64,000 nucleotides of DNA from Trypanosoma brucei (GCA_000002445.1 CP000066.1:1408001-1472000), one strand, 5' to 3'. Shown: positions 4,931 through 62,244, counted from the first letter of the stretch. Program-made: numbers and translations. The notes: generated by a model from the sequence alone, not told the origin.

Positions 4931-4961
4931 TTGTGAAGGAGGGGTGCGCCGGGTTGGACCC

Positions 4962-7199
4962 ATGGCGCACTATGATGAGTGGCTCATGTCAGTTGACGGG
5001 CTCGATTTCCACGACGAGGATGACAGCTATTTTAATGAAACTTATGCAACGGAGGATGAGCCTTCTCTCCGGACGGGTAGTGTCTCTTCTCTAGACCAGT
5101 TCGATGTGGTGCTGTGCCTCGTCGACTTTCAACAACGCATGTTCCAAGGTGTTGTTGCGCATGATTGCAAGAACCCATTTGCCGGTGGAGCAGAACAGGT
5201 ATACGACGATATCGCCGAGGTGAAAGTGAAAGAAACCCCCACAGTGTTCGAAAAGGCAATCTGCTGCGTTCAGCAACTGTACAAGGACAAGGGGATATCT
5301 GACAGCAACGATATGGTTGCGTTGGTGCTGTACAATACAAGGGAATGCACACATCCTGATTACCCTGGTGTATACGTCTTTCATACTTTTTGCTCAGCGG
5401 AAATACAATCTGTACTGGATTTGGAGGAACTTGTAGCTGCGGGGAGGGTACCGTCAGCGGGATATGAAAATATTGTGACGAAGATTGGCCATTCAACTGA
5501 AGCCAAGTCTCATCTCGGGGATGCGCTGCGGGCAGCCCGGCATTTGTTTTCCCAGCTGCCTTCCGAGGTCAAACATCGTCGAATTTTTCTCTTCACAAAC
5601 GACGTGAACCCACATCGCGGTGACGAGGAGCTTTTGCAGAAATGTGCTATCCAAATCGAGAGCTTGTCCTCTGGGGGAGTGGGCTTGGTGTGCTATGATA
5701 TGAGCCCCACTGCCCTTCCGTCACCGGCGGCTTCAACGCAATCGGGAGAAGCGGCTGCAATGAGTGAGCGTTGGGCAACACAGTTCGGCGGTGTGGACGA
5801 GTTTTGGAGTGCTCTTACGGGTGCGGTACCGAAGGCAACAAACAGTTCACGGGTTGGCACTATTGATATTGTTCACCTGAATAGCGACGATAGCGTTATG
5901 CTCGGAGCGCTCTCAACGGCAGTCCGCTGGCGCACACACCCACGGGGAGCCTCTCAAACGACAACACTAACTATTGGTGTAGGCGCAAAGGGCTCGGCAC
6001 TACCAAGACTGACAGTGGGTATGTATTTCCCGATGACAAATGCGCAGCGCCGATTATCGAAGTGGTTGGATGGACGCGCAGGTGAAATGGTAATGCTTCG
6101 GCAGCGTGCGGTGGGAGTGGGGGCCCCTATTTTGCTGCCTTGCCACGCGGGGAAGAGTGGTGCGCCACCTGCACATATCAGTACGGGGCAGTTGGGCAAG
6201 TCACGTCCAAGCACGGGACCGGGGACGTGCCCAAACGTTCCTCTAAGTTGTAAAAAGCATATCGCCGAGGTCGTTGGGGCGGGATTAACTCTCGGCTTTT
6301 CCATCATATGCTTCAAAAACGCTGATGACGTTCTGCACCCTCAGTACGTCCTGGGGAAGTCGTGCGTCCTCCACCCAGATCCGCAAGACGGTAGCGATGG
6401 CTCGCTTCGACTTTTCATTCGGTTGGCTCGAGCGCTGAAGGAGCAGCGGAAGGTTGCGATGGCGCAGCACATTACGCGCTACGCCACTCCTCCTCGTCTT
6501 GTCGCACTTGTGCCGCCCGGGCTCAACGGTGATCATATGGACACGGCTAGTTTCCCTGTGATGCACGGTCTTGGTTTGTACGTCGTGCCTCTCTCGTATG
6601 CTGACGACGTTCGTACCACCCCTCGATCCCCTCTCTTCGGCGATGCAACGAAACCTATGGAACGTGATATTGCTCTTGCACAGCGACTGCTGGCCACGCT
6701 GCCGTCTAAGTACAATGTGAACGTAGTTCCCAACCCTGCTTTGGAGCTACGCTATAAAGCTATTGAGAGTATTGTGCAACAGACACAGCAGCAGAGTGGG
6801 TTGTCAAAGGAAATTCCAGGGGTAGCTCCGTTCTCGCAACTGTCAAAGGCAGTTGATCGGACGTGGGGTGATCGTGGGGCTATGGCAAAATACGGCTCTG
6901 TGTTTGATGAGTTTAAGGCGGTATTGCTCCCTTCGTACAACCGAGACGAAACGTGTGGTCCTAAGACGAAAGCGGCGCGGAATGTGAAGGCGCGAGCAGA
7001 GTTGGCTGACGAGGACATCAAAGGTGTTGAAAGAATAATATCTGCCGTCGAGTCGGCGTTTCGGTTCCAGTCTATGGGGATGCTGACTGAACCGCAGTTG
7101 AAGGAGTATTTGCGCGTGATGGAGGGCGGTGCCTTTGGAGTCCGGAGAAATCCGGATATCATTCAAGCTGTGATATCTCAATTGCAAGGCGACATTTAG
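4962..7199 (+). CDS. KU70: Ku70 (ATP-dependent DNA helicase II 70 kDa subunit homologue)
   Basis: The track ORF starts at GTG 4944; the first ATG is 4962 (MAHYDEW...). 'RIFLFTNDVNPHRGDEEL' aligns with human Ku70 'RIMLFTNEDNPHGNDSAK', and 'PPRLVALVPPGLNGDHMDTASFPVMHGLGLYVVPLSYADDVR' aligns with 'PPYFVALVPQEE...PPGFQLVFLPFADDKR'. The C-terminal 'LTEPQLKEYLRVMEGGAFGVRRNPDIIQAVISQL' is SAP-like. An upstream polypyrimidine tract (4853-4899) and AG are present. Confidence 0.85.
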   Translation: MAHYDEWLMSVDGLDFHDEDDSYFNETYATEDEPSLRTGSVSSLDQFDVVLCLVDFQQRMFQGVVAHDCKNPFAGGAEQVYDDIAEVKVKETPTVFEKAICCVQQLYKDKGISDSNDMVALVLYNTRECTHPDYPGVYVFHTFCSAEIQSVLDLEELVAAGRVPSAGYENIVTKIGHSTEAKSHLGDALRAARHLFSQLPSEVKHRRIFLFTNDVNPHRGDEELLQKCAIQIESLSSGGVGLVCYDMSPTALPSPAASTQSGEAAAMSERWATQFGGVDEFWSALTGAVPKATNSSRVGTIDIVHLNSDDSVMLGALSTAVRWRTHPRGASQTTTLTIGVGAKGSALPRLTVGMYFPMTNAQRRLSKWLDGRAGEMVMLRQRAVGVGAPILLPCHAGKSGAPPAHISTGQLGKSRPSTGPGTCPNVPLSCKKHIAEVVGAGLTLGFSIICFKNADDVLHPQYVLGKSCVLHPDPQDGSDGSLRLFIRLARALKEQRKVAMAQHITRYATPPRLVALVPPGLNGDHMDTASFPVMHGLGLYVVPLSYADDVRTTPRSPLFGDATKPMERDIALAQRLLATLPSKYNVNVVPNPALELRYKAIESIVQQTQQQSGLSKEIPGVAPFSQLSKAVDRTWGDRGAMAKYGSVFDEFKAVLLPSYNRDETCGPKTKAARNVKARAELADEDIKGVERIISAVESAFRFQSMGMLTEPQLKEYLRVMEGGAFGVRRNPDIIQAVISQLQGDI

Positions 7200-9716: not shown

Positions 9717-10841
9717 ATGACTGCGCGCCCATCTGTGAGTGTGTACTCTGCGTCGGAGGATAAAGTGGTTGGCACCTGTTCGCTACCCGCTGTGTTCACT
9801 GCGCCCATCCGTCATGATGTTGTGCAGTTTGTGCACACGAACATGGCAAAGAACTCCCGCCAACCTTATGCGGTGAACCGTCTTTCCGGCATGAAGCACT
9901 CCGCGGAGTCTTGGGGTACTGGCCGCGCTGTCGCCCGTATTCCCCGTATTCACGGTGGTGGTACGAGTATGTCGGGTGCTGGTGCATTCGGTAACATGTG
10001 CCGGGGTGGTCGTATGTTCGCACCCACAAAGATCTTCCGCCGCTGGCACCGTAAGATTAATCTGCACCAGAAACGTTTCGCTGTGGTGTCCGCCCTCGCC
10101 GCCTCGTCACTGCCAGCACTTGTAATGTCACGAGGACACAAGATCGAGAATGTCGCTGAGGTGCCGCTCGTGGTGGAAGATGGTGTACGAGCCTATGAAA
10201 AGACTAAAGAGGCAATGACATTCCTTAAGACTGTTGGTGCCATCGACGACGTGAACCGTGTGAATGACTCCCGTCAGATACGTGCTGGCCGTGGTAAGAT
10301 GCGTAACCGTCGCTACGTTGCGCGACGGGGCCCGATGCTGGTGATGCCAGACAACAAGGGCACACGTGCCTTCCGCAACATCTTTGGGCTCGACCTTGCG
10401 AATGTAAACTCACTGAACCTTCTGCACCTTGCACCTGGTGGTCACGTCGGGCGCTTCATCATCTGGACGAAGAGTGCATTCGAGAAGCTGGACAAAATCT
10501 TCGGTACCTTCACAGAACCCTCCACCGTTAAGTCGGGCTTCATGTTGCCCGCACCGATGTTGACGAGTACTGATGTGACGCGCATCATGCAGTCCGAAGA
10601 GGTGCGTCGCGTTCTGAAACCCAAGAAACTGCAACCCAAGAGGCCAAGCCGCTATAGGCAGCCGACGAACGGTATTCGCAACCGTCGCCTGCGCCTGCGT
10701 TTGAACCCGTTCCAGAAGAAGGAGAAGGCAATGGCTAAGGGCATGCAGAACAAGAAGAACCGTGAGGCTCGCCACGCCGCCAAGGTCGTTCGGTTGGCGA
10801 AAGCGAGGAAAAATGTCGCGAAAGCACTCAAGAAGAAGTAA
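9717..10841 (+). CDS. RPL4: 60S ribosomal protein L4 (uL4)
   Basis: ATG start. There is near-colinear identity to eukaryotic RPL4: '[49 protein letters not shown]..RRWHR', 'ALPALVMS.GH.IE.V.E.PLVVED' and 'KMRNRR...RRGP'. The Lys-rich C-terminus is typical. Confidence 0.95.
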   Translation: [374 protein letters not shown]

Positions 10842-22598: not shown

Positions 22599-22608
22599 TC
22601 ATTGGGTG

Positions 22609-25425
22609 ATGATTCTTGGCCCTGGTGGGCGCATTTTCATCAACCATGGTCATCCAGCGTATCCGCATCTCATGGACTTTCTTACTGCCTGCTGTGAGCC
22701 AGTCTGCCGGACTCTGTACGTGAGTGAATATACCATTTCACCTTCGTCCCTCTCGGCTGCCACTGCGGAAGGGACGTATTCCATGGAAATGGTACGGAAC
22801 GTCATTCGTTACTTTCGGCTGGATGAGCAGCAGCAAATTCCAGTGGATGTAGAGCGATATGCGGCATTGGAGCGGAGGGTGCGCGACAGCGTTCAAGATA
22901 CTTCATTGGATTTGCCGATGGAGGTGGGAGAAGCGAAAGTCAGCGCCAATGGCGACGTGAAAGCGGAAGAGGGGTGCGAAGAAGCGACGGATGAATTGAG
23001 CCCGTTGGCGGGGCAGGTGAAAAAGGAAGAGACGAAGGAAGTTGCGGCGGAGCCTCGGCGTCGGTTCCTCTCACTTAGTAAAAGAATTTCGGCAAAATCA
23101 GAGCCTTTAGTGACTCGGGCAGTGGTTAACACCGGCGCTCTCCAACCCCTTCCAGCCGATCTCGAGCAGATGTTGCGAGAAGAGGAGAACTCATCGAGGG
23201 TTCGAATTGTGTTGCAGCCTTGTCTGCGACCTGTTAAACGACGTGCTGTCGGTGGGGACAAACAGCACTCGGATGAACAGCAATGTCAGCGTGCAGAGGA
23301 AACCAAATTAGCATACTTTTTGACGAGTCCCGATCGCAATCACATGGAGCATCTGGTGAGTCGTCTTCAGGACTTTCTCGTTCCCGTACTTTTGCACGGT
23401 ACACGCCGCTGGGTTGTATCGGATGTGGATCGTGGAGTGGAGGAGAGAAGCACCGCTGAAAGTGGTCGGGCAAAGACACTTCGGAGGCTGTTCGAGGCAC
23501 CATCATCGGCATCGGGTCGGTCAGTTGCTTCTAAATCTTTAACGAATGAGGGAGCTAACGGTGACGGCCTTGGAGGTGGCGTGGGAAGGAGATGTACTCG
23601 CATTGTCTACAAGAGTCAGGTGATGGACGGAAAGATGCGTAATGTGCGCGAACGACTTTACAAGGAGCTCAGTGTTCGCGCTGACTTGTTTTATGATTAT
23701 GTTCAGGATCACTCGCTTCATGTATGTGACCTTGAGCTTTCCGAGAATGTCCGACTGCGACCATATCAGGTTGCATCGCTGGAACGCTTTAGAAGTGGTA
23801 ACAAAGCTCACCAGGGTGTCATTGTTTTGCCCTGTGGTGCTGGAAAAACCCTTACTGGCATTGGTGCAGCAGCCACTGTTAAGAAGCGGACCATAGTGAT
23901 GTGCATTAACGTTATGTCAGTTTTGCAGTGGCAGCGCGAGTTTATTCGCTGGACGAACTTATCAGAAGACCAGGTGACGGTGTGTATAGCGGATAAGAAG
24001 CAAATGCCTGGCGATGTTTTTATAACGACGTATAGTATGCTTATTGCGCGGCGTTCTAACGTTCCTGAGATGGAACAGAGTGCGGATGCCAAATTGACCG
24101 CAAAGATACTTGCCAGTGTTGGGGAGCAACCATGGGGTTTACTTCTCTTGGATGAAGTACACACGGCTCTCGCTCACAACTTTCAGGAGGTGCTTAACAA
24201 GGTGAAGTACAAATGCGTAATTGGGTTGAGTGCTACGCTGCTGCGAGAGGACGACAAAATCGGCGACTTGCGCCATCTTGTAGGGCCGAAGCTGTACGAA
24301 GCGAACTGGTTGGATCTTACAAGGGCGGGTTTCCTTGCTCGAGTGGAGTGCGCAGAGATTCAGTGCCCGCTGCCAAAGGCCTTTCTGACGGAGTACTTGG
24401 AGAGCCAGTCGGATGGGGACCCTTTTGCTCGCCGTGGTACAACGCGGATGGCGCACTCAGTGGTTTGTTTAAATCCGTATAAGTTATGGTGCACCCAGGC
24501 GTTGCTAGAGTTCCATCGTAACAGATCGCCACCTGATAAGGTCATTATTTTCTGTGACCAAATAGATGGAATTCAGTACTACGCCCAGCACCTGCACGTA
24601 CCGTTCATGGATGGCAAGACGAGTGACATGGAGCGGGAAAATCTTCTTCAGTACTTTCAGCACTCCGACAACATAAACGCCATCATCCTCTCCCGTGTGG
24701 GTGATGTTGCTCTCGATATCCCATGTGCTTCTGTTGTCATTCAAATTTCAGGTCTGGGAGCTTCGCGGCGTCAGGAGGCACAAAGGCTAGGTCGGATTCT
24801 GAGGCCAAAACCCGCTTCCTTGGATAACGTCTGTTCATACTTCTACACCCTTGTGTCGCAGGACACACACGAAATTTCACAGAGTTATGAGCGGCAGAGC
24901 TGGTTACGTGACCAGGGATTTTCTTATCGTGTACTGCAGTCGGACATGGTCCTTCAGCACTTTTTGCGGACGGGTGGAAAACTTTGTTGTGTTGGGCCGC
25001 CGCGTTGGTGGTACGAGTGTGCGGGCCCGTCGTGTGATAGTGCCGTTGCGGCAAAGGGGACTTACTGGATACCCTTTTCTCAGGAGGCTGCGCTTCGCAT
25101 GCAAAGCCGATTTGTTGCTGGTGTGAGGGGATGCGATTTGACAGCTACCGTACTTCGTGACACGCCGCGGCCGCCGGAGCTGAAAAACATGGGTGTGGAA
25201 GAGAAGTGGACCGTATGCTTCAGTGATTCTTGTGCTCCGGAAACATTCGGTACAGTTCAGTTGGTGGAGGGCAATCCGCTGCTGGTGCGCCGTATCTGTT
25301 GTGGACCGCTTGCTGTCGAGCATGATTGCCTTCACGGGGGAGAGGAGTGTCTGCAGTACGCCGTGCAGCAGATGAAGGTTATGGTGGCGAAGAATTCTAA
25401 AAACCGAATTCCGCTGACTACCTAG
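22609..25425 (+). CDS. XPB/ERCC3-family SF2 DNA helicase paralogue (TFIIH/NER XPB or XPB-R), N-terminally short, with Cys-rich C-terminal extension
   Basis: The track ORF starts at GTG 22606; the ATG is at 22609. 'GRIFINHGHPAYPHLMDFLTACCEPVCRTL' aligns with human XPB '[29 protein letters not shown]'. 'LRPYQ...GVIVLPCGAGKTLTG' is helicase motif I; 'LLLLDEVHT' is the DEVH motif II; 'GLSATLLREDDKIGDLRHLVGPKLYEANWLDL' and 'QISGLGASRRQEAQRLGRILRPK' are motifs III to VI. Kinetoplastids are known to carry two XPB paralogues, and I cannot assign which one this is from the sequence alone. Confidence 0.9.
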   Translation: MILGPGGRIFINHGHPAYPHLMDFLTACCEPVCRTLYVSEYTISPSSLSAATAEGTYSMEMVRNVIRYFRLDEQQQIPVDVERYAALERRVRDSVQDTSLDLPMEVGEAKVSANGDVKAEEGCEEATDELSPLAGQVKKEETKEVAAEPRRRFLSLSKRISAKSEPLVTRAVVNTGALQPLPADLEQMLREEENSSRVRIVLQPCLRPVKRRAVGGDKQHSDEQQCQRAEETKLAYFLTSPDRNHMEHLVSRLQDFLVPVLLHGTRRWVVSDVDRGVEERSTAESGRAKTLRRLFEAPSSASGRSVASKSLTNEGANGDGLGGGVGRRCTRIVYKSQVMDGKMRNVRERLYKELSVRADLFYDYVQDHSLHVCDLELSENVRLRPYQVASLERFRSGNKAHQGVIVLPCGAGKTLTGIGAAATVKKRTIVMCINVMSVLQWQREFIRWTNLSEDQVTVCIADKKQMPGDVFITTYSMLIARRSNVPEMEQSADAKLTAKILASVGEQPWGLLLLDEVHTALAHNFQEVLNKVKYKCVIGLSATLLREDDKIGDLRHLVGPKLYEANWLDLTRAGFLARVECAEIQCPLPKAFLTEYLESQSDGDPFARRGTTRMAHSVVCLNPYKLWCTQALLEFHRNRSPPDKVIIFCDQIDGIQYYAQHLHVPFMDGKTSDMERENLLQYFQHSDNINAIILSRVGDVALDIPCASVVIQISGLGASRRQEAQRLGRILRPKPASLDNVCSYFYTLVSQDTHEISQSYERQSWLRDQGFSYRVLQSDMVLQHFLRTGGKLCCVGPPRWWYECAGPSCDSAVAAKGTYWIPFSQEAALRMQSRFVAGVRGCDLTATVLRDTPRPPELKNMGVEEKWTVCFSDSCAPETFGTVQLVEGNPLLVRRICCGPLAVEHDCLHGGEECLQYAVQQMKVMVAKNSKNRIPLTT

Positions 25426-29804: not shown

Positions 29805-30180
29805 GGGTCAATCACTCACGTGAGTCTGAGTGCACTGAGCTGCAGAGACATTTCCCCAGAAGTGACCCTGAAACCTGTTGGACACAATTACTGCCGGTGT
29901 CTGAGTGCGGTGTGGGCATACTTGGGTTCTGTATCTGATCCTTGTTGTTTTCTCCCTTCTTATCTTTGTCTTTTTGTTTCCCTAGTTTGCTCTGCATTCG
30001 AGATGAGTACTGTATATTCTTTAATTGATTCCCTCCAAGCCCTCCTCTTTTCTTGACTATATTGCGTTGTTGAATGTAGATGTGCATGGTTGTATTTGGT
30101 TATGATACCCCGTTGCTTGCGGGCGCGTTGCACGAGATTGCATGGAGGGCGCGTGTGAGGCTTCTTTTCCTCCAGAGTTC

Positions 30181-30360
30181 CTTCATTTTCCTCCTGTTTC
30201 AATCCTCATCTGCATTTGTTTTCTTTTCTCTCTTTTTTTTCTTCGCAAACTACAAATACATTTGGTTATGTTCCTCTCTATGTTTTTTTTTAAATCTGTC
30301 ATCAATAATAATAATAATAATTATTATTATTATTATTGCGTTACGTATAGCGCTTACAGA
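30181..30360 (+). promoter_or_regulatory. Polypyrimidine tract, 34-bp AAT/ATT palindrome and AG acceptor upstream of exonuclease paralogue 1
   Basis: A pyrimidine-rich run at 30181-30295 is followed by the (AAT)n(ATT)n palindrome at 30304-30337 and then 'cttacag' at ~30352-30358, immediately before ATG 30364. Confidence 0.4.
30304..30337. repeat. Perfect 34-bp palindrome (AAT)5AA|TT(ATT)5
   Basis: 'aataataataataataattattattattattatt'. The second 17 nt are the exact reverse complement of the first 17 nt. Confidence 0.9.
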
Positions 30361-30363
30361 AAC

Positions 30364-31500
30364 ATGTCGCCCCACAACAAGCGCTCCATGGAACAAAAGA
30401 AGAGGAATAAAGACCGTATCGCCGCCTACCACGGGCAAAGGGTCAACTCGCATGGAGGTCACCGAAATTCGCATTCGCATTCGGGCCACCGGCACCGCGG
30501 CGGGCATACTGTTAGGAGAAACCGCATTTACGACCCGGGAAATCCGTTTGATAGGCAACTCTTCGACTATTTGATTGTCGTGGACGTGGAAGCGACATGC
30601 GAGTATAAAAATGACAATTATCCCCACGAAATTATTGAATTACCCGGTGTATTAGTTGACGTGAGGCGTGGCGTTGTAGACAAGGAACGTTCGTTTCGTT
30701 CATATGTGCGACCGCAACGTAATCCTCTTCTCACCCCTTTCTGTAAAGCACTCACAGGAATAACGCAGGAGGATGTTGACAGCGCACCAACCCTCCAGGA
30801 AGTTGTGAAGTTATTTGAGCAGTGGTACACCGAAACGATTCCACGCGGTGCAAAAGTTGCCTTGGCTACGGACGGGCCTTGGGATTTGAAAAACTTTGTG
30901 CACGAGCACTCCATCTTGCGTGATCATATTAGTTTCCCCACCATCTTTTACGAATATCTGGACATCCGCACGACCTTTGCACACTTCTTCAATCGTGGTA
31001 CGCCTTTAAAACTAGTTCCCATGCTTGAACGGTTGCAGCTAACATTTGAGGGACGTGAGCACTGCGGTTTTGACGATGCGGTGAATATTGCCCGCCTCGC
31101 GGTGTCTATGATGCGTGCGGGATGTGTGTTCAACTACCTCGTGGCAATCCCATTAACTGATGAATTTCACTACGACATGCCAAATACTGCGTTGTACCGC
31201 CGAAAGGAGGGGAGCGGTTATCTTGACCCTGATGTTGTTGATGACATTGCGAAGAAATGCTTTGGAGTAGATTACTTTACATTCGGTGAGAGACATATGG
31301 CAGAGGTGATGGAACACCGGCGCCGCTACCCTCAAAACTTCAACCAACGCAACCAACTGTGGAAACAAACGAAAATGAAGAATCGCGGCCGCAGGTTGTA
31401 CGGCGTTCGCTTCAGAATGGTAGCCGTTGCCGTCTTGGCTCTGCTTGGATTAGTTTTGTTTTTGTTGCTCATTTACCGGAAAGTGATGACGCTGCTCTAA
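30364..31500 (+). CDS. ERI-1/3'hExo-family DEDDh 3'-5' exonuclease, paralogue 1 (C-terminal hydrophobic tail)
   Basis: The track ORF (ATG 30142) begins in low-complexity intergenic sequence; the likely start is ATG 30364 just after a polyY tract, an (AAT)n palindrome and AG. Exo motif I is 'LIVVDVEATCE'; 'YPHEIIELPGVLV' and 'LTGITQEDVDSAPTL' are conserved; motif II is 'ATDGPWDLKNF'; motif III is 'EHCGFDDAVNIARLAVSMMRAGC'. Human ERI1 has 'DFEATCEE..HEIIEFPVV', 'LTGITQDQVD', 'TDGSWDMSKF' and 'HCGLDDSKNIARIAVRMLQDGC'. The C-terminus 'MVAVAVLALLGLVLFLLLIY' is a predicted TM helix. Confidence 0.8.
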   Translation: MSPHNKRSMEQKKRNKDRIAAYHGQRVNSHGGHRNSHSHSGHRHRGGHTVRRNRIYDPGNPFDRQLFDYLIVVDVEATCEYKNDNYPHEIIELPGVLVDVRRGVVDKERSFRSYVRPQRNPLLTPFCKALTGITQEDVDSAPTLQEVVKLFEQWYTETIPRGAKVALATDGPWDLKNFVHEHSILRDHISFPTIFYEYLDIRTTFAHFFNRGTPLKLVPMLERLQLTFEGREHCGFDDAVNIARLAVSMMRAGCVFNYLVAIPLTDEFHYDMPNTALYRRKEGSGYLDPDVVDDIAKKCFGVDYFTFGERHMAEVMEHRRRYPQNFNQRNQLWKQTKMKNRGRRLYGVRFRMVAVAVLALLGLVLFLLLIYRKVMTLL

Positions 31501-33182
31501 CTGCTATTTTTTTCTTTTTCTTTTGTTGTTCTTATACTGCTTTAGATGTGAAGCAAAGTGCTTGGGTGGTTAAGCAACACTGTTTGTGTTTGCGTATGTG
31601 TGGGGAGTTAGCTGAGAGTTTGGTTGCCAACGTTGATGTTTGTTGTGCGCGTTGTCTTCCGCGTGTCCCCTTATCGTGTTGAAGGGGTAGTGATGTAGCC
31701 GATCCTAACGAAGGGGGAGGGAGTGGAGTCATCGAACTGAAATAACTCAATTAGTGAAAAAACAAAAAAAAATTAATAATAATAATACAACAACAACAAC
31801 AACCTCCAATTGTCGTGTAATGGTGGAATAAAAGGGGGAACCACGACTATAAACACATTAAAAGGGATTAGGGTTGATGTGGACGTGAAGGATGGAAATT
31901 TGATACACGCCGCCTCTTTACTCGTCCTCATTTTAACTTCTTTACGTCTGTCCCAACTAATCTCATCGCCATGTGTTGTTGTGTTGTCCGGGTTTAGAGG
32001 CATATGCGCGACCCCCCTTTTTTTGTTATATGCAAATATTTTGAACCTCACGTACAAAGTGCTTGCTTCTTCTTTAGCTATTTTTTGTATATATTTTTTT
32101 AAATCCATTAGGGGAAAAGGCATAAGAAAAGGGATATGAGGGAAGTTGGCTCATCATCAATACAAACACAAGGAGCAAGGCGAAACATTAAAGGGAGACT
32201 TCTTCATGGCGGTTCAGTGGTTTCCGCCACTTTCTTTTTTTCTTTTTTAAGTTGCTGATGTTGTGCTTGCTGGTAGACATAACTTCTTTTTCATTTCCAC
32301 CCACTCTTTACTTTATGGCAGCGCAGTTCAAGCAATCATTGGGTATCAAAGAGGGCAAATCTGGTGTAGGGGTTAAAAGAATTTAACTATGAAGGAGAAT
32401 GTGTTTTCGGAGGGTCAGTAAAAGAAAGAAAAGGAAACTAAAGTTGAAGAGGGAGGTAAACATACGTCACGTAGCATAAAGTTGGTGTAACAATGAAGAT
32501 TACTTGTTTCGTTGTGTTTTTTTTGCTTTTTCACGTACTGGTTCTCCATATGTTTTTCTTCATTATGTCTTGGCTGTGTTATTTATCAGGTGAAATTCCT
32601 TCATTCTCATGGTTACGCACGCATATTTTTCCATGCCGCTTGTTTTCAGGGTTCCCCCTTTGGGGTTTGTTTGTTTGTTTTCTTGTTGTTCACTATTATC
32701 GTCATACATTACATTACTTCATCTTTTCATCCACTTATTCTCTCTTTTCTTTTTATTCTTTTTATTTTTTTTAAAAAAAAACGCTCTTCTTCGGTTTAAG
32801 CCGCCACAACAGCGCGCATTAACTTGGAGGCGTACGGTAACCGCATCCACAGGCCGATTTCATCATCTCTCAGGCGTTTGCATAAGGGGTGTTTGAAAGA
32901 CAAGTGTTGGATACGGGGGAATTCGCTTCGTCAAGGGTGTGCTGTTGAGGGGCAAGTTTTGTTTTTTTTTTTTGCACAAAAAAAACAACAACAACAATAA
33001 AAAGGTATACATTTTCATTTCTGTGGAGGTCAAAGACTTGCATAGTGGACAAAGAAAAGGAACACACGTAGGGAGAGGTAAAGTGAAGTGAAGAGGGAGG
33101 AAGGGAACTGGAGCCCCCCCTAAAAAAAAAAAAAATAATAGGAAGTGTGTGTTGTCAGTTGAAAACATTGCTGACCTACAAA

Positions 33183-33258: not shown

Positions 33259-35547
33259 ATGGATTTGAAGGAGAACCGTAGAAGTTGCACGTTTCATGGT
33301 GAGCCAACAGACACGGGTGACGGAAATGCCTATTCCGATACGCAGTGCTGCAGCACTTCATCATGCATAGATAACGTGCAGTATATTGGTTCTAAAGCAA
33401 GTGGTGTGGAACCAACCTTTGGTGATGGGTTAAAGTTACACGACACAACACACTCAGGGCGTGAGGGTCATCGCTTTCAATCCAATAGAGCTCCCGCTAT
33501 TTCTAACCAGGAAAAGTGCCGTACGGTAAGGTTCATTGCTGCGCAGTGGCTTTCGTTGTTGATGAACGAGTCACCCAACGTGGCGATACCGCCTTCTCTC
33601 CGAGGTCGTAGGAACCAAACGCGTCGCCGTCGCCGTCAACAACAACAACATCAGCAGCAGGTCACCAGGCGGGATGAGGAGTTATCCGGACCTGATGGGA
33701 GGGACAATGTGATGGCGGAGGAGGTCGATAGTGATGAGAGTTACTCGCAAAAGAGGATTCTTCCTATTGGCGTCACCAAAAAAGGTGCATCACCAACCCT
33801 CACTGGAAATGACAACAGGCAAGTGGAGGAACCCCGCACCATGACTGGGAATGATACGCCCACATCTTCGTTTGAGTTAGTGCCACGGGAAGAAACACTC
33901 CCGCAGCTTATGGCCGTGTTGAGGGAAGTTGCCCTGGCGGGTGCTTCTTTATCTGATCTCTCGCCAGTAGGAGATGAGGGGGAGATGAGTACTTCACAAT
34001 CGGTAAGCGAGAAAGCGGAGGCGAGTGTGGCTGATGTAGTTACAGGTTCGAGTAACAGTGGTTGCACACCCGCACAAACCCAAGACGAATTGTTATGGAA
34101 GGATATTCGTAAGCAGTTGAACCAAGTGTGTAAACTGGTTCACAATCGCAGCGAGCTAGCGGCAGAACTAAACAGCACCCTCGGTAACGACTGGTATTTG
34201 AGTGATGATGAACTTCGCAAGGATGAAACGCCCCTCAAGGATTATTGTTTCCAGCTTCCTCCACCACAGGTAAGTTGCGTTGACACCCACTCAGCCGCTG
34301 CTGCATCATCTGAGAGGGAGGCTTCAGAACCAATGGAACAACAGCAGCAATTTCAAAAGCAGGAGTGCACCGATCGTACCCGCACTGTGGCTGTCGCCTC
34401 TGCCGGGTCTCGATTAAATCGGGACGCACCTCCGTTTCACTCCCGGTTGTACGTGCCAACACACCTTAGTTCTTCCTCTACAATTTGGGCGGATGCGCCT
34501 GTTTACTATCCGGGGGGTACATCATCACCCGGTAAACAGAAAGAATTGTCTTCACCTTCAGTTGCACATCAGCGTCCTTCTTTCACACAGACTGCGGAAA
34601 GCAGTTCCTTAGGTGGTGCGTCGGTTGGTTCACCCACGGTGCCTCTCACCACCTCTGCAGGGGCATCAGCAGCGTCAAATGTGGGCTCCTCCACAACTTC
34701 GCCGAGCATAACGTTTAATTTAGAGTCGCGTGAAGGTATGATTCGCAGGAGGACGGCTGCAGCAGCAGCAGCGGCTGTGGCCGCAAATCATTATGTTCAC
34801 AACTCGGGAGGTAATTTTTATAGCGGTGGTCGTTCCCGGGGTGGTTGGGGTAACTCCCATTCACCGGTGGTGACTTATATGAACTGTGCACTGTCCCTCT
34901 CGCAGTGTCCTTTTGACTATTTACTTGTTGTAGATTTTGAGGCGACGTGTGAAGAATACGCGCCACCATCGTACTTACACGAAATAATTGAGTTTCCTGT
35001 GGTTGTGGTTGACGCCAAGCTGCAGCGCGTCATAACGGAGTTTCACCGCTACGTGAAACCTAAGGTGAAACCGCAGCTGAGTGAATTCTGCCGCCAACTT
35101 ACCGGCATCCGGCAGGAGGACATTGATAGCGCCGCTCCACTGGAAGATGTAATCAAGCAATTTGAACGCTGGTACGCGCAAACGATACCACCGGGTAGCC
35201 GTACCGTATTAGTAACAGACGGACCTGCGGACCTTCGTGAATTTATGTACGTGCATAGTGTGACACGGCAAGGGATCCGCTTCCCCAGCATGTTTTACCA
35301 GTGGATTGATGTGAAGCAGGTCTTTGCCCACTTTTTCCAGTGTCAGCAGGGGAAAATAAAGGCCATGCTGGAGGTCCTTCAGTGTCCTTTTGAGGGGCGA
35401 CTCCACAGTGGCATCGACGACGCGAGAAATATTGCAAAAATTGTTATTCGAATGCTGGAGGTTGGGTGCTCTTTTTGCGAGATTCCGCTTTGCCGGCTTC
35501 CATATGGTACCACAACCACTGCTGCTGCAGGCCCAGCTCAGGAATGA
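33259..35547 (+). CDS. ERI-1/3'hExo-family DEDDh 3'-5' exonuclease, paralogue 2 (long low-complexity N-terminal region)
   Basis: The track ORF starts at TTG 33220; the first ATG is 33259 (MDLKENRR...), preceded by polyY and 'ttgcag'. The C-terminal ~220 aa contain 'DYLLVVDFEATCEEYAPPSYLHEIIEFPVVVVD', which is near-identical to human ERI1 'DFEATCEEGNPPEFVHEIIEFPVVLL'. Also present are 'LTGIRQEDIDSAAPL', 'TDGPADLREF' and 'LHSGIDDARNIAKIVIRMLEVGC'. The N-terminal ~540 aa are Ser/Gln/Ala-rich with no recognised domain. Confidence 0.8.
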   Translation: MDLKENRRSCTFHGEPTDTGDGNAYSDTQCCSTSSCIDNVQYIGSKASGVEPTFGDGLKLHDTTHSGREGHRFQSNRAPAISNQEKCRTVRFIAAQWLSLLMNESPNVAIPPSLRGRRNQTRRRRRQQQQHQQQVTRRDEELSGPDGRDNVMAEEVDSDESYSQKRILPIGVTKKGASPTLTGNDNRQVEEPRTMTGNDTPTSSFELVPREETLPQLMAVLREVALAGASLSDLSPVGDEGEMSTSQSVSEKAEASVADVVTGSSNSGCTPAQTQDELLWKDIRKQLNQVCKLVHNRSELAAELNSTLGNDWYLSDDELRKDETPLKDYCFQLPPPQVSCVDTHSAAAASSEREASEPMEQQQQFQKQECTDRTRTVAVASAGSRLNRDAPPFHSRLYVPTHLSSSSTIWADAPVYYPGGTSSPGKQKELSSPSVAHQRPSFTQTAESSSLGGASVGSPTVPLTTSAGASAASNVGSSTTSPSITFNLESREGMIRRRTAAAAAAAVAANHYVHNSGGNFYSGGRSRGGWGNSHSPVVTYMNCALSLSQCPFDYLLVVDFEATCEEYAPPSYLHEIIEFPVVVVDAKLQRVITEFHRYVKPKVKPQLSEFCRQLTGIRQEDIDSAAPLEDVIKQFERWYAQTIPPGSRTVLVTDGPADLREFMYVHSVTRQGIRFPSMFYQWIDVKQVFAHFFQCQQGKIKAMLEVLQCPFEGRLHSGIDDARNIAKIVIRMLEVGCSFCEIPLCRLPYGTTTTAAAGPAQE

Positions 35548-37888: not shown

Positions 37889-38878
37889 ATGGTTTCTTGC
37901 AAGGCAATACCGGAAAGAGCCAGTGCCAGCAGTAACGGCGTGCAACCTCAAGCGTTTCATACTGACAAATGTTATGACGCTGGAGATATAACTTGCAAGA
38001 AGATGACTAAGAATGAAGGCGATGGAGGTCTATCACAAAGAAAGAATAAACCGCGTGGTCGTCCGCAACCTTTTTCACATTTACTTGTGTGTGACTTCGA
38101 GGCGACGTGTGACGCTGATAGTGCCGGACTGTACCCACACGAGATCATTGAGTTTCCGGTAGTGTGCATTGACACCGCACAACTTGCTGTTGTAGCTGAG
38201 TTTCACTCTTATGTTCACCCAGTGCGCCGTCCGAAACTCACCGCTTTTTGTAAGGAGCTGACTGGCATCACCCAATCGGTAGTTGATGACGCACCAACTC
38301 TGCCGGAGGTGATTCAAAAATTTGGTCAATGGGTTCGTGAAGTGGTGTATCCTCTTTGTAAAATGTGGAAACAACAGTATCCTCCTTCTCAGCTGGCAAG
38401 CAACTGTCTGGGTGATTTGGGAAAAAAATTCAAATATGACGAGAAAGACAATAAAGAGTGGGTGGGTTGCGAACGCATGGTTTGCTTCGCCACCGACGGT
38501 CCGTGGGATATGCGTAAATTCATGCATGAATGCAGCGTGGTCCGCGATGGCCACATTTTTCCGCCGCTTTTCTACCGCTGGGTGGACGTGCGTAAGTGCT
38601 TCAAACAACACTTCAACAAGTGGCCGCGGAAACTGGTCGACATGTTGCGGACGTTGCGTCTCGATTTCGAGGGCAAACAACACAGTGGAATTGACGACTC
38701 CCGAAACATTGCGCGTATCCTCATCGAGTTGATGCGCCGCGGTTTCTTTGTGAAACGCGTTAGTACGATCGAATACAAATGTCCAATGGATGTTGGTGGA
38801 GTGATCCTTACACAAGAAATGCGGGAACTCTGTGATGAGGAAAATGCAAAAGCAAAGCAACGACACCTTCGCGAGTAA
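37889..38878 (+). CDS. ERI-1/3'hExo-family DEDDh 3'-5' exonuclease, paralogue 3 (compact, internal insertion)
   Basis: ATG start. An alternative in-frame ATG lies at 38000 (MTKNEG...). Motifs are 'LLVCDFEATCDADSAGLYPHEIIEFPVVCID', 'LTGITQSVVDDAPTL', 'ATDGPWDMRKFM' and 'KQHSGIDDSRNIARILIELMRRG'. A ~40-aa insertion 'VYPLCKMWKQQYPPSQLASNCLGDLGKKFKYDEKDNKEW' sits between motifs I and II. Confidence 0.85.
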   Translation: MVSCKAIPERASASSNGVQPQAFHTDKCYDAGDITCKKMTKNEGDGGLSQRKNKPRGRPQPFSHLLVCDFEATCDADSAGLYPHEIIEFPVVCIDTAQLAVVAEFHSYVHPVRRPKLTAFCKELTGITQSVVDDAPTLPEVIQKFGQWVREVVYPLCKMWKQQYPPSQLASNCLGDLGKKFKYDEKDNKEWVGCERMVCFATDGPWDMRKFMHECSVVRDGHIFPPLFYRWVDVRKCFKQHFNKWPRKLVDMLRTLRLDFEGKQHSGIDDSRNIARILIELMRRGFFVKRVSTIEYKCPMDVGGVILTQEMRELCDEENAKAKQRHLRE

Positions 38879-60810: not shown

Positions 60811-62244
60811 ATGGCTAGCGTGAATGCTCCCACAACTCTCACCAGTGAGCTCTTCCATGCGCTTCCATGCCTGCGGGAGAATCCAACCGATAGTGTGCTC
60901 ACCGCCGCACTGCTGCAATATTGTCAGGATGAAGATCTGGTATCCGCTGCAGATTTACTACTGCGGTTGATGGTGGATCAACCTCATGTGCAGCGGCGTA
61001 TGACACGTTCTGTCGAGAATACACATCGACATGTGCCGTTGCCTCAACCTGGAGATTTGCAGAACTTCACAGATAAGGTGCTAGAAGCGCTATGCGATCG
61101 ACATGTGTCACAACTATCTGAAAACTCAGGTGCTGCTGGGAGGAGTGTGAGGGCTCGCGGTAGCGGTTTTTCTTCGGTATCAGTGAGTGTGTCGGACATG
61201 CTGGCAACTGCAGCTGCATGGGGAAATGATTCCGTGAAATTGGAGGGGCTGGCACCTTTGCAGCCAACTAACCGGAAAGTTCACTTCTTCCCAACAGGCT
61301 GCTCACTGGTGGACCGCCTGCTCGCAGGAACCCCGTCAAATGCCACGGGTGGTGCTCTTGAAGGCGGGTTTTGCGCTGGACTTCTCACGGAGGTGCATGG
61401 TGAAGCAGGAAGCGGAAAGACACAACTTGTATTACAGTGCTTATTCCAATGCGTTGCTAGGCAACAGTGTGCTCTGTATGCTGTGAATCACTTACCCGAG
61501 CTGTTGATCAGCTCAGGCGATGGTGTTGGTGACAACACGTTTATTGATAGTTTGCGTGGCTTTGCAACTGAAAAGGTGGCGGCTCTTTATATTGTGTCTG
61601 AGGGCGTTCCTGCCAGCCGACTTGGGCCACTCGCAACAGGGGCGCTTCATAGAGCAAAAGCGATGGTCCTTTCCGCGGCTTCCCGTCAACCGTCTATTGA
61701 CGTGGAGCTTTTGAAGGCTCGTCTTGATGAATTCGTGACGGAACGAACTGTCGTTGCCGGTGTGGGGATTCGACCAGTTGATGGAGTTGGGGCGTTGTTA
61801 CGACTGCTATCGGATGGTACGCTGTCTAGTGCCTTCTCATCTTTAGGCAATACTGGGGTGGTGGTTGTAGATTCCATTGCAGATGTAGTGGCTGGTGGAT
61901 CTTCGGGCGAGGAGATGAACCGTTGGGAAATTTCCACTACCGTAGCATCTGTGGGGAGTTTGTTGAAGTCATTCGCAGTTAAGGAAGGGGCTGCCGTGGT
62001 AGTAACGAATCAAGTTCGCACGTCGCTATCTGTTTCCGGTGAGGGGATGATACGCCGCCACACACCAGTACCCGCGTTGGGGATGCAATGGGCCGTTGCT
62101 CCTCATGTCCGTGTAAATCTGCGGCGACCGCAAAATACGGCAAACGCATCGCGTCGGCAATTCACGATAATATGCGGCCCTGCTCACCAACCCGCATATT
62201 GCTCTTATTTGATTTGTAACGAAGGTATATGCAACGACGAATGA
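60811..62244 (+). CDS. RAD51-paralogue-like RecA-family ATPase
   Basis: ATG start, 477 aa. 'LVDRLLAGTPSNATGGALEGGFCAGLLTEVHGEAGSGKTQLVLQC' matches the RecA/Rad51 paralogue pattern (LD.LLGGG...G.ITE..G..G.GKTQL), including Walker A GEAGSGKT. 'VVVVDSIADVV' is Walker-B-like (hhhhD). It has the divergence level expected of a Rad51 paralogue and is not RAD51 or DMC1 itself. Confidence 0.65.
   Translation: MASVNAPTTLTSELFHALPCLRENPTDSVLTAALLQYCQDEDLVSAADLLLRLMVDQPHVQRRMTRSVENTHRHVPLPQPGDLQNFTDKVLEALCDRHVSQLSENSGAAGRSVRARGSGFSSVSVSVSDMLATAAAWGNDSVKLEGLAPLQPTNRKVHFFPTGCSLVDRLLAGTPSNATGGALEGGFCAGLLTEVHGEAGSGKTQLVLQCLFQCVARQQCALYAVNHLPELLISSGDGVGDNTFIDSLRGFATEKVAALYIVSEGVPASRLGPLATGALHRAKAMVLSAASRQPSIDVELLKARLDEFVTERTVVAGVGIRPVDGVGALLRLLSDGTLSSAFSSLGNTGVVVVDSIADVVAGGSSGEEMNRWEISTTVASVGSLLKSFAVKEGAAVVVTNQVRTSLSVSGEGMIRRHTPVPALGMQWAVAPHVRVNLRRPQNTANASRRQFTIICGPAHQPAYCSYLICNEGICNDE

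What the first reader, a model, noticed from the sequence alone, without database searches (positions are those of the whole stretch)
31374..31500. Exonuclease paralogue 1 ends in a predicted transmembrane tail anchor
The last ~40 residues 'NRGRRLYGVRFRMVAVAVLALLGLVLFLLLIYRKVMTLL' form a basic stretch followed by ~20 consecutive hydrophobic residues and a very short C-terminal tail, which is the architecture of tail-anchored proteins. A membrane-tethered 3'-5' RNA/DNA exonuclease is unusual for this family and would place the nuclease on the cytosolic face of ER or mitochondrial outer membrane.
Basis: seen in the sequence. Interest (0 to 1): 0.55.

Follow-up and report, generated by a model that had tools for sequence, protein, structure and literature searches.

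The report
Known tail-anchored rRNA-processing factor TbLrRP1
The hydrophobic C-terminal tail is real and conserved, but the gene is Trypanosoma brucei Tb927.3.5130 (TbLrRP1), shown in a 2025 paper to be an ER and nuclear-envelope membrane protein needed to cut the trypanosome large-subunit rRNA into pieces.

Summary
The CDS 30364..31500 (+) encodes a 378-aa protein with an ERI1/3'hExo-type DEDDh exonuclease domain. Its last 27 residues are a 20-residue apolar helix (352-371, window 31417..31476) followed by a 7-residue tail, RKVMTLL. The hydrophobicity beats every one of 20,000 shuffles of the protein. A C-terminal TMD is present in 52 of the 57 closest homologues (kinetoplastids where a source names the organism) and in none of the 63 metazoan, fungal or other ERI1-like hits. 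It is therefore neither chance nor a frameshift.

The window is T. brucei TREU927 chromosome 3, and the gene is Tb927.3.5130 = TbLrRP1 (Amodeo et al., NAR 2025, PMC12702573). That paper shows:
- an integral membrane protein with a cytosolic N-terminus and a protease-protected C-terminus;
- localisation to the ER, enriched at the nuclear envelope, not to mitochondria;
- a likely heterodimer with the NERD protein TbLrRP2;
- a requirement for excision of ITS5-7 of the LSU rRNA;
- only partial function without the TMD;
- DEDDh motifs that are dispensable in their assay.

One residual point is mine: all five catalytic residues are invariant in 52-53 of 53 orthologues, so a catalysis-dependent role not yet assayed remains plausible.

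Novelty: already known. Interest: low.

The parts
30364..31500 (+). Complete CDS of Tb927.3.5130 / TbLrRP1 (378 aa plus stop)
   Evidence: 100% identical to T. brucei TREU927 XP_844103 / Q580W2 over all 378 residues. The start MSPHNKR is conserved in orthologues. The paper gives 378 aa and 44 kDa.
30364..30435 (+). Conserved basic N-terminal segment (res 1-24, MSPHNKRSMEQKKRNKDRIAAYHG), predicted helix 6-24
   Evidence: Alignment A1 consensus MxxHNKRxxAxxxxxKxRxA. AF2 models a helix at residues 6-24 with modest pLDDT. Function not tested.
30436..30555 (+). His/Arg/Gly-rich low-complexity linker (res 25-64), predicted disordered
   Evidence: pLDDT below 50 for residues 24-52. Poorly conserved, column identity about 0.3.
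30556..31131 (+). ERI1/3'hExo-type DEDDh 3'-5' exonuclease domain (res 65-256). Catalytic residues: D74 (30583-85), E76 (30589-91), D170 (30871-73), H233 (31060-62), D238 (31075-77)
   Evidence: Pfam RNase_T PF00929, E 6e-22, residues 71-245. Human ERI1 1W0H, E 5.6e-40. Foldseek top hits are 3'hExo, ERI2 and ERI3. The five DEDDh residues are invariant in 52-53 of 53 orthologues.
31132..31371 (+). Conserved domain between the nuclease domain and the membrane, seen only in the TMD-bearing group (res 257-336; folded part about 257-325)
   Evidence: pLDDT 91-96. Near-invariant R279, R280, S284, G285, K297, G301, Y304. ERI1 sequence alignments end at about residue 256. Function unknown; I infer it may be the TbLrRP2 or RNA interface.
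31372..31416 (+). Basic juxtamembrane stretch KMKNRGRRLYGVRFR (res 337-351), on the cytosolic side
   Evidence: Net charge +5 over the 12 residues before the TMD. The median across orthologues is +4, consistent with the positive-inside rule.
31417..31476 (+). Transmembrane tail anchor MVAVAVLALLGLVLFLLLIY (res 352-371)
   Evidence: KD19 3.23, Hessa sum -5.6, 0 of 20,000 shuffles reach it. Helix with pLDDT about 96. Present in 52 of 57 closest homologues, with hydrophobicity conserved but not sequence. Published results: carbonate-resistant membrane association, and the deltaTMD protein is cytosolic and only partly functional.
31477..31500 (+). Seven-residue lumenal tail RKVMTLL (31477-31497) and TAA stop (31498-31500)
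   Evidence: Tail length in orthologues has a median of 8 aa and a range of 0-43. A published C-terminal HA tag is protease-protected.

Best explanation
The feature is the C-terminal transmembrane anchor of TbLrRP1 (Tb927.3.5130), a kinetoplastid-specific ERI1-like DEDDh protein.

Because the TMD ends only 7 residues before the stop codon, it cannot leave the ribosome before termination. It must therefore be inserted post-translationally, which is the tail-anchor mode (inferred). The result is an N-cytosolic, C-lumenal protein in the ER and the contiguous nuclear envelope (shown experimentally by others).

There it pairs with TbLrRP2 (Tb927.10.9200), a NERD-domain protein with an N-terminal TMD. 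The membrane-bound complex is required for the late, trypanosome-specific excision of the internal spacers that split the LSU rRNA into six pieces. Loss of TbLrRP1 mainly affects ITS5-7. TbLrRP2 is the probable endonuclease. TbLrRP1 is proposed to bind and present the RNA, since alanine substitution of its DEDDh motifs still complemented the knockout.

The anchor raises efficiency by keeping the complex where nearly finished 60S subunits leave the nucleus. Without the TMD the protein is cytosolic and rescues only partially.
For: Identity of the gene:
- 100% match to T. brucei TREU927 XP_844103 / Q580W2 on a 1,653,225-bp contig.
- Three tandem RNase_T ORFs of 378, 762 and 329 aa, exactly the lengths the paper gives for Tb927.3.5130, Tb927.3.5140 and Tb927.3.5150.
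- A Ku protein at 4944-7199; KU70 is Tb927.3.5030 in PMC8311970, which fits the locus numbering.

The anchor:
- Hydropathy and shuffle statistics.
- Conservation in 52 of 57 closest homologues and absence from 63 non-kinetoplastid ERI1 hits.
- A confident AF2 helix over residues 329-377.
- No N-terminal hydrophobic segment.

Topology, location and function come from PMC12702573:
- Digitonin and carbonate fractionation, proteinase K protection, and BiP co-localisation with nuclear-envelope enrichment.
- SILAC co-IP and an AF3 heterodimer model with TbLrRP2.
- LSU-beta loss and ITS5-7 retention.
- DEDDh-dead complementation.
- Partial rescue by the deltaTMD protein, which is cytosolic.

Independent support: Tb927.3.5130 is listed under 'endoplasmic reticulum' and Tb927.10.9200 is classified as ER in the spatial proteome supplements of PMC10361982.
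Against: - The insertion route (GET/TRC40, EMC or other) has not been tested by anyone, and the paper never uses the term 'tail-anchored'.
- Some named Leishmaniinae orthologues (Leishmania, Leptomonas, Porcisia) and related unnamed hits carry 24-43 residues after the TMD, which is at the upper limit for strictly post-translational insertion.
- It is unresolved whether part of the protein reaches the inner nuclear membrane.
- The 'scaffold only' view sits awkwardly with the complete invariance of all five catalytic residues in 52-53 of 53 orthologues.
- The complementation read-out for the catalytic mutant was an ethidium-stained agarose gel, which cannot detect changes of a few nucleotides at RNA ends.
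Confidence: 0.95

Rival explanations
1. The tail anchors the protein in the mitochondrial outer membrane.
For: The TMD has basic residues on both sides and a short, positively charged tail (+2), features shared by some outer-membrane tail-anchored proteins (general knowledge). One orthologue carries the automatic name 'putative mitochondrial hypothetical protein' (P0026). A mitochondrial RNA-editing TUTase appeared in the co-IP.
Against: Confocal staining overlaps the ER marker BiP and the nuclear envelope, for both N- and C-terminally tagged protein. TrypTag reports ER. Tb927.3.5130 is listed as ER in PMC10361982. The TMD is very hydrophobic (GRAVY 3.0), which in other eukaryotes favours the ER (general knowledge). 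The phenotype concerns cytosolic rRNA.
Confidence: 0.02
2. The hydrophobic C-terminus is an artefact: a chance hydrophobic run, read-through into UTR after a frameshift, or a cleaved GPI-attachment signal rather than a membrane anchor.
For: None beyond its position at the very end of the ORF. T-rich trypanosome UTRs do translate into hydrophobic peptides; the spurious 5' extension of this same gene model scores KD 2.48.
Against: None of 20,000 shuffles reaches the observed hydropathy. A TMD at the aligned position occurs in 52 of 57 homologues that share almost no sequence identity there, so hydrophobicity itself is under selection. There is no N-terminal signal peptide, which a GPI protein needs. 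C-terminally HA-tagged protein is detected intact and protease-protected, so the C-terminus is not cleaved off. The deltaTMD protein becomes cytosolic.
Confidence: 0.01
3. TbLrRP1 is a catalytically active, membrane-tethered 3'-5' exoribonuclease. Its nuclease activity is needed for a step the published assay could not see, for example trimming a few nucleotides from the 3' ends of rRNA fragments released by TbLrRP2, analogous to ERI1 trimming of 5.8S rRNA. This extends the best explanation rather than excluding it.
For: D74, E76, D170, H233 and D238 are invariant in 52-53 of 53 orthologues spanning trypanosomatids, Trypanoplasma borreli and unnamed relatives, and the nuclease domain is the most conserved part of the protein. 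Pseudo-enzymes usually lose such residues (general knowledge). The closest solved relatives are active enzymes: ERI1, ERI2 and ERI3. The paper notes ERI1's role in 5.8S 3'-end processing. The catalytic-dead test was read on an EtBr agarose gel after ectopic expression.
Against: The triple-motif alanine mutant fully restored the rRNA pattern. No enzymatic activity has been shown for the wild-type protein. Knockout cells grow almost normally. The acidic residues could be conserved for metal-dependent RNA binding rather than for cleavage.
Confidence: 0.4

Closest known systems
TbLrRP1 (Tb927.3.5130), Amodeo et al., Nucleic Acids Res 2025 (PMC12702573)
   Same: It is the same gene. The window protein is 100% identical to the T. 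brucei TREU927 protein. It has the same length (378 aa) and the same two downstream paralogues of 762 and 329 aa. The DEDDh domain plus C-terminal TMD architecture is the one described in the paper.
   Different: Nothing substantive. The paper does not use the term 'tail-anchored' and does not address the insertion pathway. It also does not comment on the invariance of the catalytic residues across orthologues (my analysis).
ERI1 / 3'hExo, ERI2 and ERI3 (metazoan and fungal DEDDh 3'-5' exoribonucleases; PDB 1W0H, 1ZBH, 7N8V, 2XRI)
   Same: The nuclease domain is homologous: E 5.6e-40 to 1W0H, 32-38% identity in the Foldseek alignments, and all DEDDh residues present. ERI1 also acts on LSU rRNA, trimming the 5.8S 3' end.
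   Different: There is no SAP domain. TbLrRP1 adds a conserved domain of about 70 residues after the nuclease fold, plus a C-terminal TMD. None of the 63 non-kinetoplastid homologues listed has a C-terminal hydrophobic segment. Catalytic motifs were dispensable for the known function.
Mammalian TREX1 (DNase III)
   Same: It is a DEDDh-fold 3'-5' exonuclease that is a tail-anchored ER protein with a cytosolic catalytic domain (PMC11904002 abstract). The folds superpose (Foldseek E about 1e-6 to 1e-5).
   Different: Sequence identity is only 13-17%, and TREX1 belongs to a different branch of the superfamily. It is a DNase acting in innate-immune DNA clearance, not in rRNA processing. The anchors were evidently acquired independently (inference).
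Tandem paralogues Tb927.3.5140 (window 33259..35547) and Tb927.3.5150 (window 37889..38878)
   Same: They have the same ERI1-like DEDDh domain, 51% and 39% identical to TbLrRP1. [quoted passage not shown]
   Different: Tb927.3.5140 has no TMD (maximum KD 1.24). It has a 550-aa N-terminal extension. Tb927.3.5150 has an insertion of about 40 residues within the domain; I did not run a hydropathy scan on it. The functions of both are uncharacterised in the literature I could read.

Membership tests
Tail-anchored (TA) membrane proteins | A single TMD located so close to the C-terminus (within about 30-40 residues) that it emerges from the ribosome only after termination | tested here: met
   The only hydrophobic segment is residues 352-371 of 378, with 7 residues after it. 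The median tail in orthologues is 8 aa, range 0-43.
Tail-anchored (TA) membrane proteins | No N-terminal signal peptide and no other TMD | tested here: met
   Maximum KD19 in the first 70 residues is -1.2. The maximum outside the tail is 1.43, inside a nuclease-domain helix. This holds only for the 378-aa model; the obsolete 452-aa GenBank model adds a false hydrophobic N-terminus.
Tail-anchored (TA) membrane proteins | Bulk N-terminal domain in the cytosol and C-terminus lumenal | not testable with these tools
   Published proteinase K protection shows the N-terminal HA tag degraded and the C-terminal HA tag protected. Carbonate extraction shows an integral membrane protein (PMC12702573).
Tail-anchored (TA) membrane proteins | Post-translational insertion by a dedicated pathway (GET/TRC40, EMC, SND) | not tested
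   Not addressed in the paper ('tail-anchored' occurs 0 times). Inferred here only from the 7-residue tail.
ERI1/3'hExo subfamily of DEDDh exonucleases (Pfam PF00929 RNase_T) | Significant match to the family profile and to solved ERI1 structures | tested here: met
   PF00929: 79 bits against a cut-off of 24. 1W0H: E 5.6e-40. Foldseek top 17 hits are ERI1, ERI2, ERI3 and CRN-4.
ERI1/3'hExo subfamily of DEDDh exonucleases (Pfam PF00929 RNase_T) | Intact DEDDh catalytic residues (ExoI D-x-E, ExoII D, ExoIII H-x4-D) | tested here: met
   D74, E76, D170, H233 and D238 are present here and invariant in 52-53 of 53 orthologues.
ERI1/3'hExo subfamily of DEDDh exonucleases (Pfam PF00929 RNase_T) | Demonstrated 3'-5' exonuclease activity | not testable with these tools
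   The authors state that activity of the wild-type protein has not been shown. The motif mutant still complements.
ERI1/3'hExo subfamily of DEDDh exonucleases (Pfam PF00929 RNase_T) | N-terminal SAP domain (present in canonical ERI1, absent in ERI2 and ERI3) | tested here: not met
   No PF02037 hit, whereas many metazoan and fungal hits carry it. The protein is therefore ERI1-like, not a canonical ERI1 orthologue.
TbLrRP1 orthologue group (Tb927.3.5130) | Sequence identity and genomic position | tested here: met
   100% identity over 378 aa to XP_844103 / Q580W2. The tandem 378/762/329-aa trio matches the paper. The Ku protein upstream at 4944-7199 is consistent with KU70 = Tb927.3.5030.
GPI-anchored proteins (considered and rejected) | N-terminal ER signal peptide plus a cleaved C-terminal hydrophobic signal | tested here: not met
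   There is no N-terminal hydrophobic segment. The C-terminal tag is retained on the mature protein.

The most novel reading that the evidence does not exclude
The anchored DEDDh domain is still a working exoribonuclease. Its activity, tethered at the ER and nuclear envelope next to the TbLrRP2 endonuclease, would polish the 3' ends of the newly cut LSU rRNA fragments, or of another ER-proximal RNA. The published agarose-gel read-out could not resolve such a step. The absolute conservation of all five catalytic residues in 52-53 of 53 orthologues is what one expects of an active enzyme, not of a pure scaffold.
Probability: 0.4. Interest if true: 0.35.

Novelty: already known. Interest (0 to 1): 0.12.

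Why it matters
A membrane-anchored ERI1-like protein is unusual, and the authors who characterised it say so. It points to a late, membrane-proximal step of 60S maturation peculiar to kinetoplastids. That story was published in December 2025, so the scan finding adds no new biology. Three small points remain:
- Explicit recognition of the protein as a tail-anchored protein, which raises the untested question of its insertion pathway.
- The tension between 'catalytic motifs dispensable' and their complete evolutionary invariance.
- A warning that the GenBank and UniProt 452-aa model carries a spurious hydrophobic N-terminal extension, which would mislead automated topology prediction.

Tried and rejected
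- My first translation used ATG 30365 and was out of frame. I corrected it to 30364.
- I suspected one of the three paralogues might be SNIP, the SL RNA 3'-end exonuclease of Zeiner et al. 2004. Reviews cite that paper, but the paper itself (PMC529039) is not held, and the TbLrRP1 paper does not mention SNIP. This is unresolved.
- A full-text search for 'tail-anchored' + T. brucei + mitochondrial outer membrane + exonuclease returned nothing. The outer-membrane proteome search did not lead to this gene.
- The gene was found by guessing locus tags from my recollection that RPL4 is Tb927.3.5050. I corroborated the numbering afterwards with KU70.
- I tried to identify the organism behind EukProt hit P0047 (TSA prefix GILJ01) by literature search and got no hits.
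- The context of the distant TM-tailed homologue P0052 (L001) shows dense same-strand genes, consistent with a euglenozoan polycistron, but it gives no taxon.
- The other 'TbLRRP1' hits are an unrelated leucine-rich-repeat bilobe protein.
- I did not spend a second large protein search or the 1.84-billion-protein scan, because the question was already answered.

Full report
**1. What is in the sequence**

The + strand carries an ORF that ends at TAA 31498..31500. The frame with ATG at 30364 gives a 378-aa protein. The stated start, 31374, is the last base of codon 337, so the coordinates are right to within one base.

Residues 352-371 (MVAVAVLALLGLVLFLLLIY, window 31417..31476) contain no charged or strongly polar residue.
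- The 19-residue Kyte-Doolittle mean is 3.23 and GRAVY is 3.0.
- The summed Hessa scale is -5.6 kcal/mol.
- The next best segment in the protein scores only 1.43 and +6.2.
- Across 20,000 shuffles of the same protein the maximum window averages 1.34 +/- 0.33 and never reaches the observed value.

The segment is preceded by KMKNRGRRLYGVRFR (net +5 over the last 12 residues) and followed by just RKVMTLL. The first 70 residues are strongly hydrophilic (maximum KD -1.2). AlphaFold2 on a 20-sequence alignment (mean pLDDT 86, pTM 0.76) models residues 329-377 as one helix, with pLDDT about 96 over the hydrophobic part.

**2. What the protein is**

Pfam finds one domain, RNase_T/DEDDh exonuclease (PF00929, residues 71-245, E 6e-22). 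The nearest solved structures by sequence are human ERI1/3'hExo (1W0H, E 5.6e-40), then ERI2, ERI3 and CRN-4. Foldseek on the model gives the same ranking, with TREX1, RNase T and Pol III epsilon as distant fold matches. There is no SAP domain.

Between the nuclease fold and the membrane helix lies a confidently modelled, conserved region (residues 257-325, pLDDT 91-96). It has near-invariant R279, R280, S284, G285, K297, G301 and Y304, and the ERI1 sequence alignments end before it, at about residue 256.

**3. Is the tail conserved?**

A search of 5.8 billion proteins returned 237 homologues. Of the 57 closest, 52 have a C-terminal segment with KD19 of at least 1.9 within 60 residues of the end.
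- Those named by a source include Trypanosoma, Leishmania, Leptomonas, Angomonas, Phytomonas, Novymonas, Porcisia and Trypanoplasma borreli; many others are unnamed metagenomic sequences.
- The exceptions are one truncated fragment, one borderline case (P0027, KD 1.77) and three non-orthologous proteins.
- None of hits 58-120 (insects, molluscs, fungi and others) has a hydrophobic C-terminus.

In the alignment the TMDs fall in the same columns, but no residue after G253 is invariant, and column identity over the TMD is only 0.35-0.38. Hydrophobicity, not sequence, is what is conserved, which is the signature of a membrane anchor. The segment after the TMD has a median length of 8 residues (range 0-43). 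It is longest (19-43 residues) in a group of orthologues whose named members are Leishmaniinae such as Leishmania, Leptomonas, Porcisia and Novymonas. The cytosolic flank is basic throughout, with a median net charge of +4.

**4. Identification of the gene and the literature**

The best hit is 100% identical: T. brucei brucei TREU927 XP_844103 / UniProt Q580W2, on a 1,653,225-bp contig, which I take from memory to be chromosome 3.

The window also holds Ku70 (4944-7199), ribosomal protein L4 (9717-10841), an XPB helicase (22606-25425) and two further RNase_T ORFs of 762 aa (33259-35547) and 329 aa (37889-38878). A locus-tag search found Amodeo et al., Nucleic Acids Res 53:gkaf1327, 15 Dec 2025 (PMC12702573). 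[quoted passage not shown] It names it TbLrRP1 (378 aa) and lists its paralogues Tb927.3.5140 (762 aa) and Tb927.3.5150 (329 aa), exactly the trio in the window. KU70 = Tb927.3.5030 in PMC8311970 agrees with the numbering.

**5. What is already shown experimentally** (all from PMC12702573)

- Tagged TbLrRP1 fractionates with organelles and stays in the membrane pellet after alkaline carbonate extraction.
- Proteinase K removes an N-terminal HA tag but not a C-terminal one, so the N-terminal domain faces the cytosol.
- Confocal microscopy places the protein with BiP in the ER, enriched at the nuclear envelope. TrypTag reports ER.
- Depletion or knockout abolishes LSU-beta and causes retention of ITS5-7. 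The unprocessed rRNA still enters polysomes, and growth is barely affected.
- SILAC co-IP plus an AlphaFold3 model (ipTM 0.62) identify TbLrRP2 (Tb927.10.9200) as the partner. It is a NERD protein with an N-terminal TMD, and its NERD motif is essential.
- Alanine replacement of all three DEDDh motifs of TbLrRP1 still complements the knockout.
- TbLrRP1 without its TMD is cytosolic and rescues only partly.

Independently, the spatial-proteome study PMC10361982 lists Tb927.3.5130 under 'endoplasmic reticulum' and classifies Tb927.10.9200 as ER with probability about 1.

**6. How it most likely works**

- Shown here: the anchor is a single, extreme-C-terminal, highly hydrophobic helix with a basic cytosolic flank, conserved across the closest homologues (kinetoplastids where named) and absent elsewhere.
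- Inferred: with only 7 residues after the TMD, insertion must be post-translational (tail-anchor mode). The high hydrophobicity fits ER rather than mitochondrial targeting. The anchor concentrates the complex where almost complete pre-60S particles exit the nucleus.

**7. Rivals**

- Mitochondrial outer-membrane anchoring is contradicted by the microscopy and by the spatial proteome listing.
- A chance run, a frameshift artefact or a GPI signal are excluded by the statistics, the conservation, the lack of a signal peptide and the retention of C-terminal tags.
- One extension remains open. All five catalytic residues are invariant in 52-53 of 53 orthologues, which is unexpected for a mere scaffold. 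The catalytic-dead rescue was scored on an EtBr agarose gel, which cannot see trimming of a few nucleotides. An unassayed catalytic role, such as 3'-end polishing of the fragments, therefore remains plausible; I put it at about 0.4.

**8. Comparison with known systems and novelty**

The feature is TbLrRP1 itself, so it is already known. Within the ERI1 branch the anchor is unique to the kinetoplastid group. Within the wider DEDDh superfamily there is a functional analogue, mammalian TREX1, described as a tail-anchored ER protein (PMC11904002). TREX1 is only 13-17% identical and has different biology. Interest 0.12.

**9. Annotation caveat**

GenBank and UniProt (Q580W2; also T. b. gambiense C9ZKL9) model the protein as 452 aa, starting at ATG 30142. 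T. equiperdum and the paper use 378 aa.
- The extra 74 codons run through a polypyrimidine tract (30160-30300) and an (AAT)n/(ATT)n microsatellite.
- The first AG dinucleotides after the tract are at 30349 and 30358, just before ATG 30364.
- Orthologues begin at MSPHNKR.

The extension is almost certainly untranslated. It would add a false hydrophobic N-terminus (KD 2.48) that could turn a tail-anchor prediction into a 'signal peptide plus TMD' prediction.

Noticed in passing
window 30142..30363: The GenBank and UniProt model of this gene (XP_844103 / Q580W2, 452 aa) starts 74 codons too early. The extension runs through a polypyrimidine tract and an (AAT)n/(ATT)n repeat, and orthologues start at MSPHNKR (ATG 30364). 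It contains a false hydrophobic segment (KD 2.48) that would corrupt topology predictions. The T. vivax model P0006 (434 aa) has a similar N-terminal extension that aligns with no other orthologue.
   Followed up: yes
window 30364..31500, 33259..35547, 37889..38878: There are three tandem ERI1-like DEDDh paralogues on the same strand: Tb927.3.5130, Tb927.3.5140 and Tb927.3.5150, of 378, 762 and 329 aa. The second and third are 51% and 39% identical to the first within the domain. The second has a 550-aa N-terminal extension and no TMD; the third has an insertion of about 40 residues in the nuclease domain. Tb927.3.5150 is listed among putative telomere-associated proteins in PMC8311970. I could not determine whether either is SNIP (SL RNA 3'-end exonuclease, Zeiner 2004).
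   Followed up: partly
window 30583-85, 30589-91, 30871-73, 31060-62, 31075-77: The five DEDDh catalytic residues are invariant in 52-53 of 53 orthologues, although the published alanine mutant complements the knockout. This suggests a catalysis-dependent role that an agarose-gel read-out would miss.
   Followed up: partly
window 31132..31338 (res 257-325): A conserved, confidently folded region of about 70 residues (pLDDT 91-96) lies between the nuclease fold and the membrane helix. It has near-invariant R279, R280, S284, G285, K297, G301 and Y304. The ERI1 sequence alignments end before it. It is a candidate TbLrRP2 or RNA interface.
   Followed up: no
window 30364..30435 (res 1-24): The very N-terminus (MSPHNKR...K.R.A) is basic, predicted helical and conserved from Trypanosoma to Leishmania. 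It could be an NLS-like or rRNA-binding element relevant to the nuclear-envelope enrichment. Untested.
   Followed up: no
proteins P0010, P0013-P0016, P0018-P0020, P0022, P0023, P0026: A group of orthologues carries 19-43 extra residues after the TMD. Those with names are Leishmaniinae such as Leishmania, Leptomonas, Porcisia and Novymonas. Trypanosoma species have 7-11. This lineage-specific lumenal extension is of unknown significance and is at the upper limit for strict tail-anchor insertion.
   Followed up: no
proteins P0047, P0048, P0051, P0052, P0054, P0056; locus L001 6001..6930: More divergent ERI1-like proteins with C-terminal TMDs come from transcriptomes and metagenomes of unidentified organisms. 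The L001 contig shows dense same-strand genes, like a euglenozoan polycistron. If any were non-kinetoplastid (euglenid or diplonemid), this would modify the published claim that the TMD is kinetoplastid-specific.
   Followed up: partly
proteins P0043-P0046: Trypanoplasma borreli (P0043) and three related unnamed hits are 560-604 aa. They have an insertion of about 200 residues, acidic and coiled-coil-like, between the conserved linker domain and the TMD.
   Followed up: no
window 31775..31800: The intergenic region downstream of the gene contains (AAT)n and (CAA)n microsatellites. These are typical trypanosome intergenic sequence and probably of no significance.
   Followed up: no
window 4944..7199, 9717..10841, 22606..25425, 60811..62244: Neighbouring genes on the same strand are a Ku70/80-family protein, ribosomal protein L4, an XPB/ERCC3-type helicase and a weak Rad51-like ORF. 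All 20 ORFs of at least 250 aa but one lie on the + strand, as expected for one polycistronic unit.
   Followed up: partly
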